Origin: an uncultured archaeon
Lineage (GTDB): Archaea; Asgardarchaeota; Heimdallarchaeia; Heimdallarchaeales; Kariarchaeaceae
Direction: 5' to 3'
Assembly: GCA_964645535.1 (NCBI GenBank)
Contig: CAZYCQ010000083.1
Location: 1-10,196 of the forward strand
Length of the DNA: 10,196 nucleotides
This document shows positions 1 through 5,713 of the stretch, in pieces (position 1 is the stretch's first letter; every line of letters begins with the position of its first letter). Below the pieces are notes generated by a model. The model searched no databases. It worked only from the letters and a program-made list of their open reading frames with translations, and had not been told where the DNA came from. The translations under genes were made by a program, and so were the position numbers.

Positions 1-17
1 CCCTACCATCGCATGAT

Positions 18-467
18 ATGGAAACTGTTCTCATCGATTCAAAACGGGTATATGCTGTGACCCTTGTATTCGGGATTCTGAGCTTGATAATAACCTTCCC
101 CTTTCTGGTCATGTTTGTGACCATTCCTGGTTTTGGTGCTGTAGCATTGGCATTGCGATGGCTGAAAACCCGGTCAAAGACAGGAATGAAACTGGCTCCG
201 ATAGCTGCTGCACTTGATGCCATTTCCTATTTCCTTTCTAGCGGAATTGCTCCCGGTGATTTTCCCACTTGGTATACCGCTATTCATGTGATAACTTGGG
301 TTTTACTGATTGCAATGTTTTTGATCATGAAATGGGAATTGACCATCATTCCACGTCCTGTTGTTGCATTGAATGATGAAGAGACTCGAAGGGCACGAAA
401 AGCCCTGAAGACCCGTGATCCCGAAGACATTATGTCCATTTCCAAAATCAGGGAATGGAATTTCTGA
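18..467 (+). CDS. Hypothetical integral membrane protein (about 4 TM segments)
   Basis: 149-aa ATG ORF with hydrophobic stretches (VYAVTLVFGILSLIITFPF, LVMFVTIPGFGAVALAL, LAPIAAALDAISYFL, IHVITWVLLIAMFLIM) and a charged C-terminal tail; no family motif recognised. Confidence 0.75.
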   Translation: METVLIDSKRVYAVTLVFGILSLIITFPFLVMFVTIPGFGAVALALRWLKTRSKTGMKLAPIAAALDAISYFLSSGIAPGDFPTWYTAIHVITWVLLIAMFLIMKWELTIIPRPVVALNDEETRRARKALKTRDPEDIMSISKIREWNF

Positions 468-2051: not shown

Positions 2052-2564
2052 GTGAAAATGATGATCGTCTTCCATCCTATCGTTTGCCAGATCTTTTTTC
2101 TTGTTTCTGAGGATTATCGTGAAACTTTTCATAATCTTCTTGTCCAATATTCTCCTTTTCAAAAGGATTGGGCAATTCTTCGTCGTTACTCTGATGAGAA
2201 TAGTTTTGCAATACTGAAACTAAAAATCCCCATAAGAGAAAAAAAATTGATTGCAACTCAGGATGGAACATTATATACGATCCATATACTCAAAACAAAG
2301 GATTCTTTGCCTTCTCCAAAAACCTCTATTCCAATTCATGCTTTTACAATCATCTGGGACGGCAAAATCCAGGATATTGATGAATGGATGGCTTTATTCA
2401 AGCAATCACTTCATGTGAATTCCTATGGCGCAAATAAGGTCATTTGCTTTGACCTTATCGGTGATTTTCCTTATCAAAATGATCTACCCATCATTCCCAT
2501 TGATGAGGTTAATCTTGACTTCATTTTTGATACAGTTCATTCTATTGTCAACACAATTGCCTAA
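2052..2564 (+). CDS. Hypothetical protein
   Basis: 170-aa ORF abutting the previous stop (GTG 2052, or ATG 2058/2061). A diverged homologous fragment at ~9929-10066 keeps the same amino-acid pattern, supporting that this frame is coding. Confidence 0.7.
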   Translation: MKMMIVFHPIVCQIFFLVSEDYRETFHNLLVQYSPFQKDWAILRRYSDENSFAILKLKIPIREKKLIATQDGTLYTIHILKTKDSLPSPKTSIPIHAFTIIWDGKIQDIDEWMALFKQSLHVNSYGANKVICFDLIGDFPYQNDLPIIPIDEVNLDFIFDTVHSIVNTIA

Positions 2565-2642
2565 TCATCCTTTTCCTCAAAGATCTGGACAAGGTTCCCA
2601 CAGGTGTCGTCAAATATGGCCATATATCCAAATTTTGTTCTG
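2371..2642 (+). repeat. Diverged direct repeat, left (intact) copy spanning the convergent 3' ends of the 170-aa gene and the VOC gene
   Basis: 2519-2586 matches 10021-10088 at 56/68 nt without gaps; weaker gapped similarity extends to about 2371 and 2642. Confidence 0.85.
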
Positions 2643-2978: not shown

Positions 2979-3560
2979 CTATTTTACAGGAAACCAGATA
3001 TGGCATCCCCTTTTAGTCATTTCATCCAAAAGTTCAAGATGTCTGCCCTCATGTAGAAGGGCATAGTGCAATCTGATTTCTTTCAGTCTTTCCATTTCAA
3101 GGATGGCAGGAGGGAGAATTATGTCGATGTTTGCACTTAAATCAAGATATTCCAGATGCTTTAACATACAGAATTGTGATGGAAGTTCAACGATCTTGTT
3201 GAAAGCAATTCTGAGTTCAACAAGATTTTCCAATTGCAAAATGTCTTCAGGAATTCTTGTTAGTTGATTGAAGGACAAGTCTAGAAACTTCAGATCTTTG
3301 AACCTTCCAATTTCTATCGGAAATTCTTCGAATTGGTTTTTCGATAGATCCAGTCGCTCAAGACCGGTCAAATCCTCCACATAGGGGGGGAGGGTCTTTA
3401 ATCCCAAATTTCTAAGATTAAGACCCTCTACCCTATTCTGGTTGATGCTGAACCCGCGCTCATTCAGCCCAACCTCACTTTTGGTTAACCTTTCTCCGAT
3501 GAACTCCTCAAGTGATTTGATAATGTGATGATCTCTTTCAAGAGCATCGCTAGATGTCAC
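2979..3560 (-). CDS. Leucine-rich repeat protein
   Basis: About five 23-aa repeats of LxxLxLxxNxL/F..hP (LERLDLSKNQFEEFP, LKFLDLSFNQLTRIP, LVELRIAFNKIVELP, LEYLDLSANIDIILP); GTG start, not certain. Confidence 0.9.
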   Translation of the reverse strand: MTSSDALERDHHIIKSLEEFIGERLTKSEVGLNERGFSINQNRVEGLNLRNLGLKTLPPYVEDLTGLERLDLSKNQFEEFPIEIGRFKDLKFLDLSFNQLTRIPEDILQLENLVELRIAFNKIVELPSQFCMLKHLEYLDLSANIDIILPPAILEMERLKEIRLHYALLHEGRHLELLDEMTKRGCHIWFPVK

Positions 3561-3622: not shown

Positions 3623-4243
3623 TCAAATCAGTATTATGTGTTTCAAAACATCTGTTTTCACTTCAATTCCGAATTTCGTTGCAATTTGCTCCAACCATGC
3701 ATGCTCTAGTATATCTAGACCTATTACTATTTGATAATCGTACTCTGTTTCTATGAAAAACTTCGGCATTGATGAGAGCAATGCTGTCCATAGCAATGTT
3801 TCTATTTCAACCCCAATGGCTTTCGTCAAACTTTCAAGTACACCTGCAATTTCCGCGTGAATGGACACGCTGATTTCCTTCCCTACGGGATTGCTCTTTT
3901 CTGACTGGATTGTTTGTGGAAAGGCCATGTCATACCTTACTGACGCAGGATCTATTTTTGATAGCTGCACGGCAGTCCATAATCGCATTCTTATGTATTC
4001 CTGTAGCTTGCTTCTTTTCTTGTCCAATTTTCTGGCGAGCTGATTTATTTCAGAAGGTTGAAGATGGAGAGTTACCCATTGACGAGGTCTCATGATTGGA
4101 TGGATGGCCACAAAAGCCTGAATGGTCATCTGTTCTATAAAAAGAGGTAAATCATGTTTGACGGAGCTGTATTTTCCTTGCAAAAACTGCAAAAGACGTT
4201 CCCATTCATTCATTCTGACAGAGAGGTTATGGGTTACACTCAT
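3623..4243 (-). CDS. Hypothetical protein with 3-4 tandem ribbon-helix-helix-like repeats; putative DNA-binding regulator
   Basis: Repeated strand-helix-turn-helix pattern: aa ~4-44 (THNLSVRMNEWERLLQ..), 54-92 (RQWVTLHLQPSEINQLARKLDKKRSKLQEYIRMRLWTAV), 122-155 (KEISVSIHAEIAGVLESLTKAIGVEIETLLWTAL), 170-204 (YQIVIGLDILEHAWLEQIATKFGIEVKTDVLKHII). GGAGG SD upstream; overlaps upstream gene by 17 bp. CDS is solid, fold call is pattern-based. Confidence 0.65.
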   Translation of the reverse strand: MSVTHNLSVRMNEWERLLQFLQGKYSSVKHDLPLFIEQMTIQAFVAIHPIMRPRQWVTLHLQPSEINQLARKLDKKRSKLQEYIRMRLWTAVQLSKIDPASVRYDMAFPQTIQSEKSNPVGKEISVSIHAEIAGVLESLTKAIGVEIETLLWTALLSSMPKFFIETEYDYQIVIGLDILEHAWLEQIATKFGIEVKTDVLKHIILI

Positions 4244-4454
4244 GGAATTCCTCCAGTCTGATCAAATTTGAAAAAATGTCTACAAGAATTGAATAGACAG
4301 CTACAGCAGAAGTATCAGGCCAGGGAAATGTACTTGCAGGTGCGGATAAACGATGGGCTGCTACCCAGAGGGGCTCAGAATTGGTCAGAAGACGACTATA
4401 TTTGTCCCGGATCTGGTTAAGCCTCATCCTATAGGTTTTCAGGGTTCTTCCCAT
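4227..4454 (-). CDS. Small PolB2-associated protein (arCOG07300-like, 'MGRT' family)
   Basis: ATG at 4454 is preceded by a perfect AGGAGGT SD (4461-4467). Sequence MGRTLKTYRMRL...AHRLSAPAS...VYSILVD...RLE resembles, from memory, the small helical proteins encoded beside archaeal polB2. Confidence 0.75.
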   Translation of the reverse strand: MGRTLKTYRMRLNQIRDKYSRLLTNSEPLWVAAHRLSAPASTFPWPDTSAVAVYSILVDIFSNLIRLEEFHECNP

Positions 4455-4692
4455 GAACTGACCTCCTTTCAAGTCTATCAATTCGTTTAAACGCTTCTAC
4501 CATTAGGGTATAGAGAAAAACCTGCATGGCTTCCTTTTGCGTTAGGATTTTCTCCTGCTTTAGGAATCTTTCCTTCAACCCCTCAAGAATCTTCATGGTT
4601 TCATCAAATGCCTTCAAATCGTTTTTTTCCCTTATAACAGGTGCATAGTGTTGTTGAAATTTTTCCTTGAGAATATCCCATTCACTCTTCAT
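4429..4692 (-). CDS. Small helical protein, divergent paralogue of the adjacent MGRT-family protein
   Basis: GAAGGAGG SD; overlaps the radA stop by 11 bp and the next gene by 26 bp. C-terminal VFLYTLMVEAFKRIDRLE aligns without gaps to VAVYSILVDIFSNLIRLE of 4227..4454 (7/18 identical). Confidence 0.7.
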   Translation of the reverse strand: MKSEWDILKEKFQQHYAPVIREKNDLKAFDETMKILEGLKERFLKQEKILTQKEAMQVFLYTLMVEAFKRIDRLERRSVHGKNPENL

Positions 4693-5587
4693 ATTGTATT
4701 TCCTCCTTCATCTTGTGAACTAGATCATCAAAGGAATCGGGTGTCCTATCATTACAGTCTTCAATTCCATTGAAAGTGATGCTAAACCTCCCCTCTGCCT
4801 CAGGAAGATAAGGTGAATCGACAAGTCGTGCTACCGTACAGCTACCTTCTCTCTGCAAGACAATTCTGTGGGTTGTTCCATGTGCCACAATGTTGCCGCC
4901 CACGGCCACCTGCCGTGCTTCACCAAACAGGTTGGACAAATCGGCCATTACTTGATTGGTAACTACAACTGCCCTTGGTTGCTTTTCCGCAAATGCCGCC
5001 AGCTGATTCAGTTGATTGATATGGCGATTCAACAGTTGTTGCCTTTCAAATAACAGATCCTTACCCATGAATTCTGCTCTGAAATTGGCGGTCAAAGAAT
5101 CAACAATTATCAGAATAATTTCGGAATCACTAACTTTCATTACCTCTTCAACAAGTTCCATCTGTTTTTCAGTGCTAGGAGCCTTGCCAACAAATATTCT
5201 GTTCAATATCTCCTGGGGATCAACATCAAACCTTCTGCAGATCTGCAATATGCGTTCTGGTCTGAAACTTCCTTCAGTATCAATGTAAACTGCCTTTCCC
5301 CCGTTCCCTCCCAATTCCTTCGGTAATGTGGCCATAACAAGCAACTGGAGGCAAATTTGTGTCTTTCCTGTCCTGTACTCCCCAAAAAATTCAGTTACAG
5401 CCCCTTGCTCAATACCTCCGCCTAGTATCCGATTAAGAGCCTTACTTCCCGTATCTATTCTGAAAAATTTCTCCCTCTCCTTGAGCACATGATGTGCACT
5501 TTTAAACAGCGATAATACATTGTCTTTTTCAGGTAGAGCTACCTTATCCTCTTTTTGAACTCCTTCCTCGCGTTGCGGCAATGCCAT
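4682..5587 (-). CDS. radA: RadA/Rad51-family recombinase paralogue lacking the N-terminal HhH domain
   Basis: FxxA polymerisation motif (FKSA), TGSKALNRILGGGIE, Walker A GEYRTGKT, YIDTEGSFRPER, Walker B IIVDS, TNQV, GGNIVAH, DSPYLPEAE. Start set at ATG 5587 (GTGAGGA SD-like at 5598-5604); the ORF-track extension to 5653 runs through the shared upstream motif. Confidence 0.9.
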   Translation of the reverse strand: MALPQREEGVQKEDKVALPEKDNVLSLFKSAHHVLKEREKFFRIDTGSKALNRILGGGIEQGAVTEFFGEYRTGKTQICLQLLVMATLPKELGGNGGKAVYIDTEGSFRPERILQICRRFDVDPQEILNRIFVGKAPSTEKQMELVEEVMKVSDSEIILIIVDSLTANFRAEFMGKDLLFERQQLLNRHINQLNQLAAFAEKQPRAVVVTNQVMADLSNLFGEARQVAVGGNIVAHGTTHRIVLQREGSCTVARLVDSPYLPEAEGRFSITFNGIEDCNDRTPDSFDDLVHKMKEEIQYEE

Positions 5588-5623: not shown

Positions 5624-5713
5624 CCATAAAAATGAATACGGACGCTTTGTCAAGAGACAGGGGGTGTTAAGCGAAAGTATTTTTTGCTTGTTTTTTCAAC
5701 TTGCCGCAGAAAT
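5624..5713 (-). promoter_or_regulatory. Conserved promoter/operator upstream of the radA operon (copy 1)
   Basis: Plus-strand blocks CCATAAAAAT (5624-5633), ACGGACGCTTTGTCA (5638-5652), GAAAGTATT-N4-GCTT (5673-5689) and TTGCCGCAGAAAT (5701-5713) recur in the same order at 9279-9367. The first block reads ATTTTTATGG (TATA-like) on the coding strand. Confidence 0.75.

What the first reader, a model, noticed from the sequence alone, without database searches (positions are those of the whole stretch)
3623..4243. Single-chain protein with 3-4 tandem RHH-like units as candidate regulator of the cassette
Units show an alternating-hydrophobic strand (WVTLHL, ISVSI, IVIGL, LSVRM), an amphipathic helix, a turn (AIGV, KFGI) and a second helix; units 2 and 3 both end in LWTA. 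RHH domains normally bind DNA as dimers or dimers of dimers, so four fused units could form two intramolecular DNA-binding sheets suited to a multi-block operator. As the last gene of the radA operon it could be an autoregulator, a functional stand-in for LexA. No Ser-Lys autoprotease domain is evident, so any induction would need another mechanism.
Basis: inference. Interest (0 to 1): 0.75.

Follow-up and report, generated by a model that had tools for sequence, protein, structure and literature searches.

The report
Four-unit ribbon-helix-helix protein in radA operon

Summary
Observation confirmed. ORF 3623-4243(-) encodes a 206-aa protein. Two AlphaFold2 models, of this protein and of a 32%-identical orthologue, fold as four strand-helix-helix units. 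Their best solved look-alikes are all single-chain double-RHH proteins: TraY, single-chain Arc, AvtR, DndE and the WYL1 N-domain. No sequence profile recognises the protein. In the models unit 1 pairs with unit 3 and unit 2 with unit 4. A sister genus encodes the same protein as two overlapping genes (units 1-2 and units 3-4).

The family holds only about five lineages of Heimdallarchaeota. It always sits after radA, a PPB2-like gene and an MGRT gene.

The regulator reading is only partly supported:
- The strongest shared promoter block matches the Sulfolobus DNA-damage element that Orc1-2 reads.
- That block also stands before radA or polB2 in relatives that lack this gene.
- The exposed strand residues are the least conserved structured part.
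- The proteins are neutral to acidic.

A second block (ACAAA-N4-YCGTA, about 19 nt before the TATA box) does co-occur with the gene, so local autoregulation stays open. A complex model with the two small proteins gave weak support only.

The scan had noted this protein only on this same window, not on other DNA.

Verdict: new variant of a known fold; moderate interest.

The parts
3623..4243 (-). Gene for the 206-aa four-unit RHH-like protein (P0001), stop codon included
   Evidence: ORF list and translation. Orthologues of 206-210 aa share the same N-terminus.
4250..4254 (-). GGAGG ribosome-binding site six bases before the ATG at 4243. It supports the M1 start rather than the M11 start used in database calls.
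   Evidence: Read from the sequence. P0002 and the ESM Atlas record start at residue 11 and would lose strand 1.
4112..4234 (-). RHH-like unit 1 (residues 4-44). Exposed strand residues are N6, S8 and R10. An extra short helix lies between helices A and B.
   Evidence: AF2 secondary structure. In the models it pairs with unit 3: AvtR 4hv0 aligned to model 6..165 (79 residues, Z 5.3), and TraY aligned to 3..165 (97 residues, Z 7.7).
3962..4081 (-). RHH-like unit 2 (residues 55-94). It is the only basic unit (pI 11, KKRSK turn).
   Evidence: It pairs with unit 4: TraY 9f0x_E aligned to model 53..206 (86 residues, Z 8.2), and single-chain Arc to 52..206 (78 residues, Z 7.3).
3878..3961 (-). Linker (residues 95-122), disordered and poorly conserved. 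It corresponds to the junction of the two genes in the split form.
   Evidence: pLDDT is under 50 for residues 105-120. Mean identity is 35%. The split genes in L052 and L053 end and begin here.
3770..3877 (-). RHH-like unit 3 (residues 123-158). It is acidic and among the best conserved parts (SIHAE..G.L..L, LW.A.LS).
3629..3736 (-). RHH-like unit 4 (residues 170-205). It is acidic and conserved (I.LD..E...L...KF).
4227..4454 (-). 75-aa MGRT protein gene. Its end overlaps the start of the RHH gene by 17 nt. It is the most conserved gene of the small-gene set.
   Evidence: Alignment A6 gives 91/82/49% identity. The overlap with the RHH gene is kept in all five lineages, at 11-17 nt.
4429..4692 (-). 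87-aa helical protein gene, PPB2-like
   Evidence: Alignment A5. Weak likeness to the 78-aa gene directly before polB2 in G046 (pairwise E 0.002 over 31 residues).
4682..5587 (-). radA paralogue without the N-terminal HhH domain, first gene of the operon (start taken at the Met that gives 301 aa)
   Evidence: Pfam Rad51 at 3.7e-74. Orthologues are 299-307 aa.
5624..5681 (-). radA promoter: DDRE-like box AATACTTTC (5673-5681), CT-rich spacer, block 2 ACAAAGCGTCCGTA (5637-5650), TATA-like TTTTATGG (5624-5631)
9279..9339 (-). Promoter of the iRadA-polB2 pair with the same layout: AATACTTTC (9331-9339), block 2 (9293-9306), TTTTATGG (9279-9286)
2979..3560 (-). 193-aa leucine-rich-repeat protein gene, 62 nt downstream on the same strand. 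It follows the RHH gene in three of five lineages and may be co-transcribed.
   Evidence: Pfam LRR families. Conserved in L001 and L003, absent in L007 and L052. No terminator-like site lies between the genes.

Best explanation
The protein is one chain of four ribbon-helix-helix-like units. They fold into two pseudo-dimeric RHH modules (unit 1 with 3, unit 2 with 4). It is the fused form of a two-gene pair (units 1-2 and units 3-4) that still exists in a sister genus.

It is made together with a RadA paralogue, a PPB2-like 87-aa protein and a 75-aa MGRT protein. All four come from one operon that carries a DNA-damage-type (DDRE-like) promoter.

I think it most likely acts as a non-catalytic accessory or adaptor subunit of this RadA/PPB2/PolB2 damage-tolerance machinery. 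It would hold the small helical protein(s) through its conserved helical faces. It may also touch nucleic acid through its sheets. TraY serves a relaxase in this way, DndE an ABC ATPase and WYL1 Cas13d. On this reading it is a product of the damage regulon, not its master switch.

Shown: the gene, its orthologues, the split form, the operon and the promoter blocks. From predicted models: the fold and the pairing of units. Inferred: the partner and the function.
For: Fold. Two AF2 models show four strand-helix-helix units. About 25 classical RHH proteins follow at Z 3-3.6 on single units. The second model gives the same set: TraY 7.7, AvtR 7.0, sc-Arc 6.9, DndE 5.2 and 5.1, WYL1 4.6.

Most characterised tandem RHH proteins are accessory factors of nucleic-acid machines (PMC12117103, PMC10853773, PMC6547453).

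Operon coupling. The gene start overlaps the end of the MGRT gene by 11-17 nt in all five lineages. The order radA / small gene / MGRT / RHH is invariant.

Conservation. It is highest on helix B and in the acidic units 3 and 4, and lowest on the exposed strand face.

Charge. The proteins are neutral to acidic.

Complex model of the 87-aa, 75-aa and RHH proteins: weak support. The score was 0.56 and the best of 3 controls 0.00. That mark was reached by 58 of 80 solved complexes and 2 of 110 mismatched pairs. At 0.60 or under it was reached by only 7 of those 80 solved complexes and by both mismatches that passed. The runs agree in at least 59% of contacts and the partner pLDDT is at least 70. 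The control with the 87-aa chain replaced scored 0.00.

Regulation by another factor. The DDRE-like box matches the Orc1-2 element. It also occurs before radA or polB2 in genomes without this gene and at two further sites in this genome.
Against: No experiment and no solved structure exist. Fold and pairing rest on models built from 4-5 sequences, and three of the five AF2 runs of the first job were poor (pLDDT 50, 40, 37). The Z scores of 7-8 are in the range the tool calls middling.

The complex prediction is weak by the tool's own calibration, and no interface was given.

RHH proteins are most often transcription factors. A promoter block (ACAAA-N4-YCGTA) co-occurs with the gene, which fits the rival. 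Unit 1 of the two closest orthologues has an Arc-like N-S-R strand face, and unit 2 is strongly basic.

In L001 the radA operon carries the gene without polB2 nearby, so a link to PolB2 is not obligatory.
Confidence: 0.4

Rival explanations
1. Local transcription regulator. The two RHH modules of one chain bind the two halves of block 2 (ACAAA and YCGTA, centres about 9 bp apart). This block lies between the DDRE-like box and the TATA box of both the radA and the iRadA-polB2 promoters. Binding there would tune or shut off the operons (autoregulation) on top of the Orc1-type damage signal.
For: The RHH fold is the classic operator-binding fold, and AvtR, a tandem RHH protein, is an autoregulator (PMC5569661). 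Block 2 is present, with ACAAA 19-20 nt before the TATA-like box, in 8 of 8 promoters from genomes that carry the gene (window twice, L001, L003, L058, L007 twice, L052). It is absent from 4 of 4 DDRE-bearing radA or polB2 promoters of genomes that lack the gene. Unit 1 of P0001 and P0003 shows N-S-R on the strand, which fits the rule of a polar residue at position 4 and a positive one at position 6 (PMC6547453). Unit 2 is basic.
Against: Exposed strand residues change freely: N-S-R becomes D-F-S in P0004, and W-T-H becomes W-I-T. Yet block 2 is identical but for one base between the window and L003. Units 3 and 4 have Glu at the start of helix B (GVE, GIE), where RHH proteins usually contact a phosphate. 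The split forms are acidic throughout (pI 4.9 and 5.25). The co-occurrence rests on two related clades only. The fixed distance to the TATA box fits a core-promoter element read by a TFB paralogue just as well.
Confidence: 0.3
2. LexA-like master repressor of the whole cassette and regulon. It would read the full 90-bp shared motif and be inactivated by RadA-ssDNA or by the small proteins.
For: The gene sits in the operon it would control, both operons share the motif, and the fold is of a DNA-binding type.
Against: The main block is DDRE-like, with a known other reader in Sulfolobales. That block occurs in relatives without the gene. There is no protease or sensor domain. The strand faces are not conserved. 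The gene is limited to about five lineages, whereas the motif and the polB2 and radA genes are family-wide.
Confidence: 0.08
3. Acidic modulator of the RadA filament that does not bind DNA. In outcome it would resemble bacterial DinI or RecX, using the RHH scaffold only as a protein-binding body.
For: Units 3 and 4 are acidic and carry invariant surface Asp and Glu (E131, D177, E180, D198). The split forms are acidic. The gene is always in a radA operon.
Against: No test of a RadA contact was run. The only complex job used the small proteins. No RHH protein is known to me to act this way.
Confidence: 0.12

Closest known systems
F-plasmid TraY (single-chain double RHH, relaxosome accessory protein; PDB 9f0x, PMC12117103)
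   Same: It is the best structural match to both RHH modules of the models (Z 8.2 and 7.7). One chain supplies both halves of an RHH dimer. It is an accessory factor of a DNA-processing machine.
   Different: TraY has two units that pair as neighbours. Here there are four units that pair alternately. There is no sequence similarity. TraY is basic and binds oriT sites, whereas this protein is neutral to acidic and its binding is untested.
AvtR of Acidianus filamentous virus 6 (PDB 4hv0; PMC5569661)
   Same: An archaeal-world tandem RHH protein in one chain. It is a structural match (Z 5.3 and 7.0). It would be the model for the autoregulator rival.
   Different: AvtR has two units in about 100 aa, is viral, and has documented operator binding and spreading along DNA.
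DndE (two RHH repeats, partner of the DndD ABC ATPase; PMC10853773)
   Same: A double RHH protein encoded as a fixed gene pair with an ATPase. It evolves fast on the DNA-facing side. It is a structural match (Z 5.0-5.2).
   Different: The ATPase belongs to a different class (ABC, not RecA/RadA). DndE has two units plus a C-terminal helix and belongs to a DNA-modification system.
WYL1 N-terminal domain of type VI-D CRISPR (PDB 6oaw; PMC6547453)
   Same: Two RHH motifs in one chain with pseudo-twofold symmetry. Its atypical strand residues go with a role other than reading a dsDNA operator. It is a structural match (Z 6.2 and 4.6).
   Different: It is fused to a WYL domain, binds ssRNA, and is bacterial.
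Classical RHH repressors (Arc, CopG, MetJ, omega, NikR N-domain)
   Same: The same strand-helix-helix unit. Single units superpose at Z 3-3.8 with rmsd 1.4-3.7 A over about 45 residues.
   Different: Those are homodimers of one-unit chains with conserved basic or polar strand faces. Here no Pfam RHH profile matches, even at E 10.
Sulfolobales DDRE / Orc1-2 damage response (PMC6061795) and the PolB2-iRadA-PPB2 mutasome (PMC11791011)
   Same: The surrounding system matches these: the AATACTTTC box resembles AATAGTTTC of the DDRE, and polB2 sits with an inactive RadA and small helical proteins.
   Different: Neither paper describes an RHH component, and a search of the mutasome paper's stored supplements for RHH, CopG or ribbon-helix-helix found no such protein (files were cut when stored). 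Here the small genes sit behind an intact-looking radA rather than beside polB2.

Membership tests
Ribbon-helix-helix (MetJ/Arc) superfamily | Strand-helix-helix unit of about 40-45 residues | tested here: met
   Four such units appear in two AF2 models. These are predicted structures, not solved ones.
Ribbon-helix-helix (MetJ/Arc) superfamily | Two units intertwine through a two-stranded antiparallel sheet (RHH2 module) | tested here: met
   The models superpose on whole single-chain RHH2 proteins through units 2+4 (model range 53..206) and units 1+3 (6..165 and 3..165), at Z 5.3-8.2.
Ribbon-helix-helix (MetJ/Arc) superfamily | Recognised by sequence profiles of RHH families (Pfam RHH_1, Arc, CopG and others) | tested here: not met
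   No Pfam hit at E up to 10 for the four orthologues, the split proteins or the two halves. There was none in NCBIfam and none among PDB sequences. Membership is therefore by fold only.
Ribbon-helix-helix (MetJ/Arc) superfamily | Base-reading strand face: a positive residue at strand position 2 or 6 and an uncharged polar residue at position 4 (rule as stated in PMC6547453) | tested here: inconclusive
   Met in unit 1 of P0001 and P0003 (N-S-R, S-S-R). Not met in unit 4 (Q-V-G). Not kept in P0004 (D-F-S), P0005 or the split forms.
Ribbon-helix-helix (MetJ/Arc) superfamily | Sequence-specific DNA binding | not testable with these tools
   This needs a gel shift or footprint.
Single-chain tandem RHH proteins (TraY / AvtR / DndE type) | Two neighbouring units of one chain form the RHH2 module, and the protein acts as a monomer | tested here: not met
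   In both models alternate units pair (1 with 3, 2 with 4), as in a dimer of two-unit chains. The split form (91 aa plus 94 aa) fits a heterodimer origin.
LexA-type SOS repressor | C-terminal S24 Ser-Lys self-cleaving domain and an N-terminal winged-helix DNA-binding domain | tested here: not met
   No Pfam family matches. The whole chain is taken up by four RHH-like units.
PolB2 mutasome components (PolB2, iRadA, PPB2; PMC11791011) | Gene in the immediate neighbourhood of polB2 and iRadA | tested here: inconclusive
   polB2 and iRadA lie next to the radA operon in the window, L007 and L052, in the same or divergent orientation. They are not within 8 kb in L001.
PolB2 mutasome components (PolB2, iRadA, PPB2; PMC11791011) | Predicted physical contact with a known component | tested here: inconclusive
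   Complex job with the PPB2-like 87-aa and the 75-aa proteins: weak support, score 0.56, best control 0.00 (with the calibration counts quoted in the For line).

The most novel reading that the evidence does not exclude
The four-RHH protein is a damage-responsive repressor that sits on block 2, between the DDRE-like box and the TATA box of both operons. It would be lifted off by the RadA-ssDNA filament or by the small proteins. That would be an Asgard archaeal functional counterpart of LexA, built from a different fold and layered on the Orc1-type signal.
Probability: 0.08. Interest if true: 0.85.

Novelty: new variant of a known kind. Interest (0 to 1): 0.48.

Why it matters
If the models hold, this is a natural protein that packs a whole RHH "dimer of dimers" into one chain. 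A living two-gene intermediate survives in a sister genus, so it is a clean case of how RHH oligomers become single chains.

It also adds an undescribed, lineage-specific fourth gene to the radA / PPB2-like / MGRT operon that accompanies the PolB2 damage-tolerance polymerase in Heimdallarchaeota, the archaea closest to eukaryotes. Whether it is a subunit or a local regulator, it gives a handle on how Rad51-like recombinases and error-prone polymerases are coupled and controlled in that lineage.

The family is very small (about five lineages), so the reach is limited.

Tried and rejected
- Foldseek against PDB gave nothing with E under 0.9. The RHH matches came only from the exhaustive VIA search.
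- Sequence self-comparison of the four units is not significant.
- Sequence searches found few relatives. The word-index search found 3. Exhaustive phmmer over 1.84 billion representatives found 2. A search for short relatives of units 3-4 found none. The metagenome contig scan found none, and the genome contig scan returned only L007's record.
- The loose DNA pattern AATACTTTC-N15-25-ACAAA across the order was uninformative. The backwards control pattern matched about as often, so I compared promoters of orthologous genes directly instead.
- Profile comparison of the 87-aa and 75-aa proteins does not support the claim that they are paralogues (hhalign probability 6%).
- The solo MGRT genes of G046 and G038 have no RHH neighbour and no DDRE-like box.
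- ESM Atlas feature and shape searches point to RHH families (NikA-like, ParG, TacA, Arc, RHH_1, MobC), but with scores below 0.9 and TM 0.34-0.49. I treat these as leads only.
- I could not inspect model coordinates, so no electrostatic surface or direct strand-pair check was possible.

Full report
THE GENE. ORF 3623-4243 on the minus strand encodes 206 residues. A GGAGG at 4250-4254 lies six bases before the ATG. Orthologues of 206, 207 and 210 residues share the N-terminus. The start is therefore M1. The M11 start used by one database call (P0002, 196 aa) and by the ESM Atlas record would delete the first strand.

THE FOLD. Sequence alone does not prove a repeat. Local alignments between the putative units reach z 2.5-2.8 against shuffles for units 2/3 and 3/4, and nothing for unit 1. 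No Pfam, NCBIfam or PDB sequence profile matches, even at permissive thresholds.

Predicted structure is clear. AlphaFold2 on the four-sequence alignment gave pLDDT 75.6 and pTM 0.76, with four strand-helix-helix units and a disordered linker at 105-120. The model of the most distant orthologue, P0005 (32% identical), gave the same four units at pLDDT 78.7 and pTM 0.74.

Foldseek found nothing. The exhaustive VIA alignment against 48,161 solved chains gave a very specific answer.
- TraY of the F relaxosome (Z 8.2, rmsd 3.7 A, 86 aligned)
- permuted single-chain Arc (Z 7.3, 2.7 A, 78 aligned)
- the WYL1 N-domain (Z 6.2)
- AvtR (Z 5.3)
- DndE (Z 5.0 and 4.4)

About 25 classical RHH proteins follow on single units at Z 3-3.6. 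The second model gave the same set: TraY 7.7, AvtR 7.0, sc-Arc 6.9, DndE 5.2 and 5.1, WYL1 4.6. All of these top matches carry two RHH motifs in one chain (PMC12117103, PMC5569661, PMC6547453, PMC10853773). Z values of 7-8 are middling by the tool's own note. What carries the argument is the identity and consistency of the hits.

PAIRING AND ORIGIN. The aligned ranges show which units form a module. TraY and sc-Arc cover model residues 53..206 with 78-86 aligned residues, which is units 2 and 4. AvtR, MJ0366 and, in the second model, TraY cover about 3..165, which is units 1 and 3. So the chain behaves like a dimer of two-unit chains.

This fits a discovery made on the way. In a sister genus (G043; longer contig L052; a 78%-identical second source, L053) the same operon position holds two overlapping genes. 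One is 91 aa and aligns to units 1-2 (pairwise E 6e-4 to residues 35-93; alignment A8). The other is 94 aa and aligns to units 3-4 (profile E 1.2e-6 to residues 123-201). The junction falls in the disordered linker. The split is present in two independent assemblies, so it is not a sequencing error. I did not settle which way the change went (fusion or fission).

DISTRIBUTION AND CONTEXT. The family is tiny. Exhaustive phmmer over 1.84 billion representatives found two relatives. In the window's order, 3 of 4 genomes of its genus (counting the window's own) and one other genus carry it, and none of the 35 genomes of the order's other families does. One record names the organism as a Candidatus Heimdallarchaeota MAG.

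In all five lineages the gene order is radA paralogue (no HhH N-domain), a small helical gene (87 aa here), an MGRT gene (75 aa here), then the RHH gene or gene pair. Successive genes overlap. The RHH start overlaps the MGRT stop by 11-17 nt.

An inactive RadA plus PolB2 pair lies upstream in the same direction here, and divergently in L007 and L052. It is not nearby in L001. This is the PolB2-iRadA-PPB2 mutasome setting described by Timinskas et al. (PMC11791011).

A same-genus genome, G046 (93% complete), has the radA paralogue alone, a PPB2-like 78-aa gene directly before polB2, and a solo MGRT gene elsewhere. The RHH gene is thus a lineage-specific addition. An LRR gene follows 62 nt downstream in three lineages, with no terminator-like site between. 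"Last gene of the operon" is therefore uncertain.

IS IT THE REGULATOR? The shared upstream motif is real. It has three parts:
- AATACTTTC plus a CT-rich stretch
- a second block, ACAAA-N4-YCGTA
- a TATA-like TTTTAT

The first part matches the 20-bp S. islandicus damage-responsive element AATAGTTTCRGWDTACTCWS. Its ANTTTC core is bound by Orc1-2 and is required for induction (PMC6061795). This genome has three Orc1/Cdc6 genes; I did not test orthology to Orc1-2.

The same box stands before the radA paralogue of G046, before radA and polB2 of G038, and before polB2 of G039. None of these genomes has this protein. It also stands at two further sites in this genome, one before a VirB11/PilT-like ATPase gene. 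So the main block has another likely reader.

The second block behaves differently. ACAAA lies 19 nt (once 20) before the TATA-like box in all 8 promoters of gene-bearing genomes. It is missing from the 4 DDRE-bearing promoters of genomes without the gene. That is compatible with a local operator for a two-module RHH protein. It rests on two related clades only, and the fixed phase to the TATA box fits a core-promoter element equally well.

Several points weigh against operator reading:
- The exposed strand residues are the least conserved structured positions. Their mean identity to P0001 is 38%, the same as the linker, against 54% for buried strand residues and 65% for helix B.
- N-S-R in unit 1 becomes D-F-S in P0004, yet the L003 promoter blocks are almost letter-identical to the window's.
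- Units 3 and 4 are acidic and have Glu at the start of helix B.
- The whole protein has pI 7.1.
- The split proteins have pI 4.9 and 5.25.

PARTNER TEST. The result was weak support:
- The score was 0.56 and the best of 3 controls 0.00.
- That mark was reached by 58 of 80 solved complexes and 2 of 110 mismatched pairs. At 0.60 or under it was reached by only 7 of those 80 solved complexes and by both mismatches that passed.
- The runs agree in at least 59% of contacts, and the partner pLDDT is at least 70.
- Replacing the 87-aa chain dropped the score to 0.00.

This is a hint, not a demonstration.

READING. I favour an accessory or adaptor subunit of the damage-induced RadA/PPB2/PolB2 machinery, at about 0.4. 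A local autoregulator on block 2 comes next, at about 0.3. An acidic RadA-filament modulator (about 0.12) and the LexA-like master repressor (about 0.08) are less likely. The fold assignment itself I hold at about 0.85.

NOVELTY. The RHH fold and two-unit single-chain RHH proteins are known. A four-unit chain with alternate pairing, its split two-gene form, and its fixed place in a radA operon of Heimdallarchaeota are not described in the papers I could search. I class it as a new variant of a known kind. Earlier notes of this scan mention this protein only on this same window. One unrelated note reports an RHH gene at the head of a PolB2 operon in another genome. I did not check that lead.

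Noticed in passing
L052:4366-4898 and L053:224-756 (sister genus, G043): The four-unit protein exists as two overlapping genes, 91 aa (units 1-2) and 94 aa (units 3-4, GTG start). They sit in the same radA / small gene / MGRT operon, with a polB-like gene divergent upstream.
   Followed up: yes
window 2488-2630 and 9990-10134: A direct repeat of about 145 nt at roughly 80% identity. It covers the 3' end of the glyoxalase gene and the start of a small minus-strand ORF, and it brackets the 7.5-kb block that holds both repair operons. In L001 the radA operon has no polB2 pair upstream, so the block's make-up differs between close relatives.
   Followed up: partly
G000:C32:36683-36717 (L014) and G000:C31:31160-31189 (L013): Two more copies of the AATACTTTC...ACAAA element in this genome. 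One lies before, or in the annotated 5' end of, a VirB11/PilT-like secretion ATPase gene, which recalls the UV-induced pili and DNA-exchange genes of the Sulfolobus damage regulon. The other lies before a 144-aa ORF of unknown function, and G044 has an almost identical element.
   Followed up: partly
window 5637-5650 and 9293-9306; L001, L003, L007, L052, L058: A second promoter block, ACAAA-N4-YCGTA, has ACAAA a fixed 19-20 nt before the TATA-like box. It is found only in promoters of genomes that carry the RHH gene. It could be an operator or a special core-promoter element.
   Followed up: partly
window 4227-4454; G046:C2:388135, G038:C344:20427 and others: The 75-aa MGRT protein is far more widespread than the RHH protein (10 of 12 genomes of the family). 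Elsewhere it is a solo gene away from polB2 and radA. hhalign does not support paralogy with the 87-aa protein.
   Followed up: partly
window 4213-4243: A public gene call (P0002, 196 aa) and the ESM Atlas record start this protein at Met11, which removes the first strand. The Atlas's own model of that truncated form is poor (pTM 0.39).
   Followed up: yes
L054:2718-2954 (G046): In the same-genus genome without the RHH gene, a 78-aa helical gene sits directly before polB2 and overlaps it. It weakly resembles the window's 87-aa protein (E 0.002). This suggests the 87-aa gene is the PPB2 of this lineage, moved into the radA operon.
   Followed up: partly
L047:2127-3050 (G046) and L048:1214-2314 (G042): RadA copies differ in their N-terminus within the family. 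G046 has an NTD-less 307-aa form like the window's, while G042's best match is a 366-aa form with a helix-hairpin-helix-like N-domain. The window's genome holds at least six RadA-like genes.
   Followed up: no
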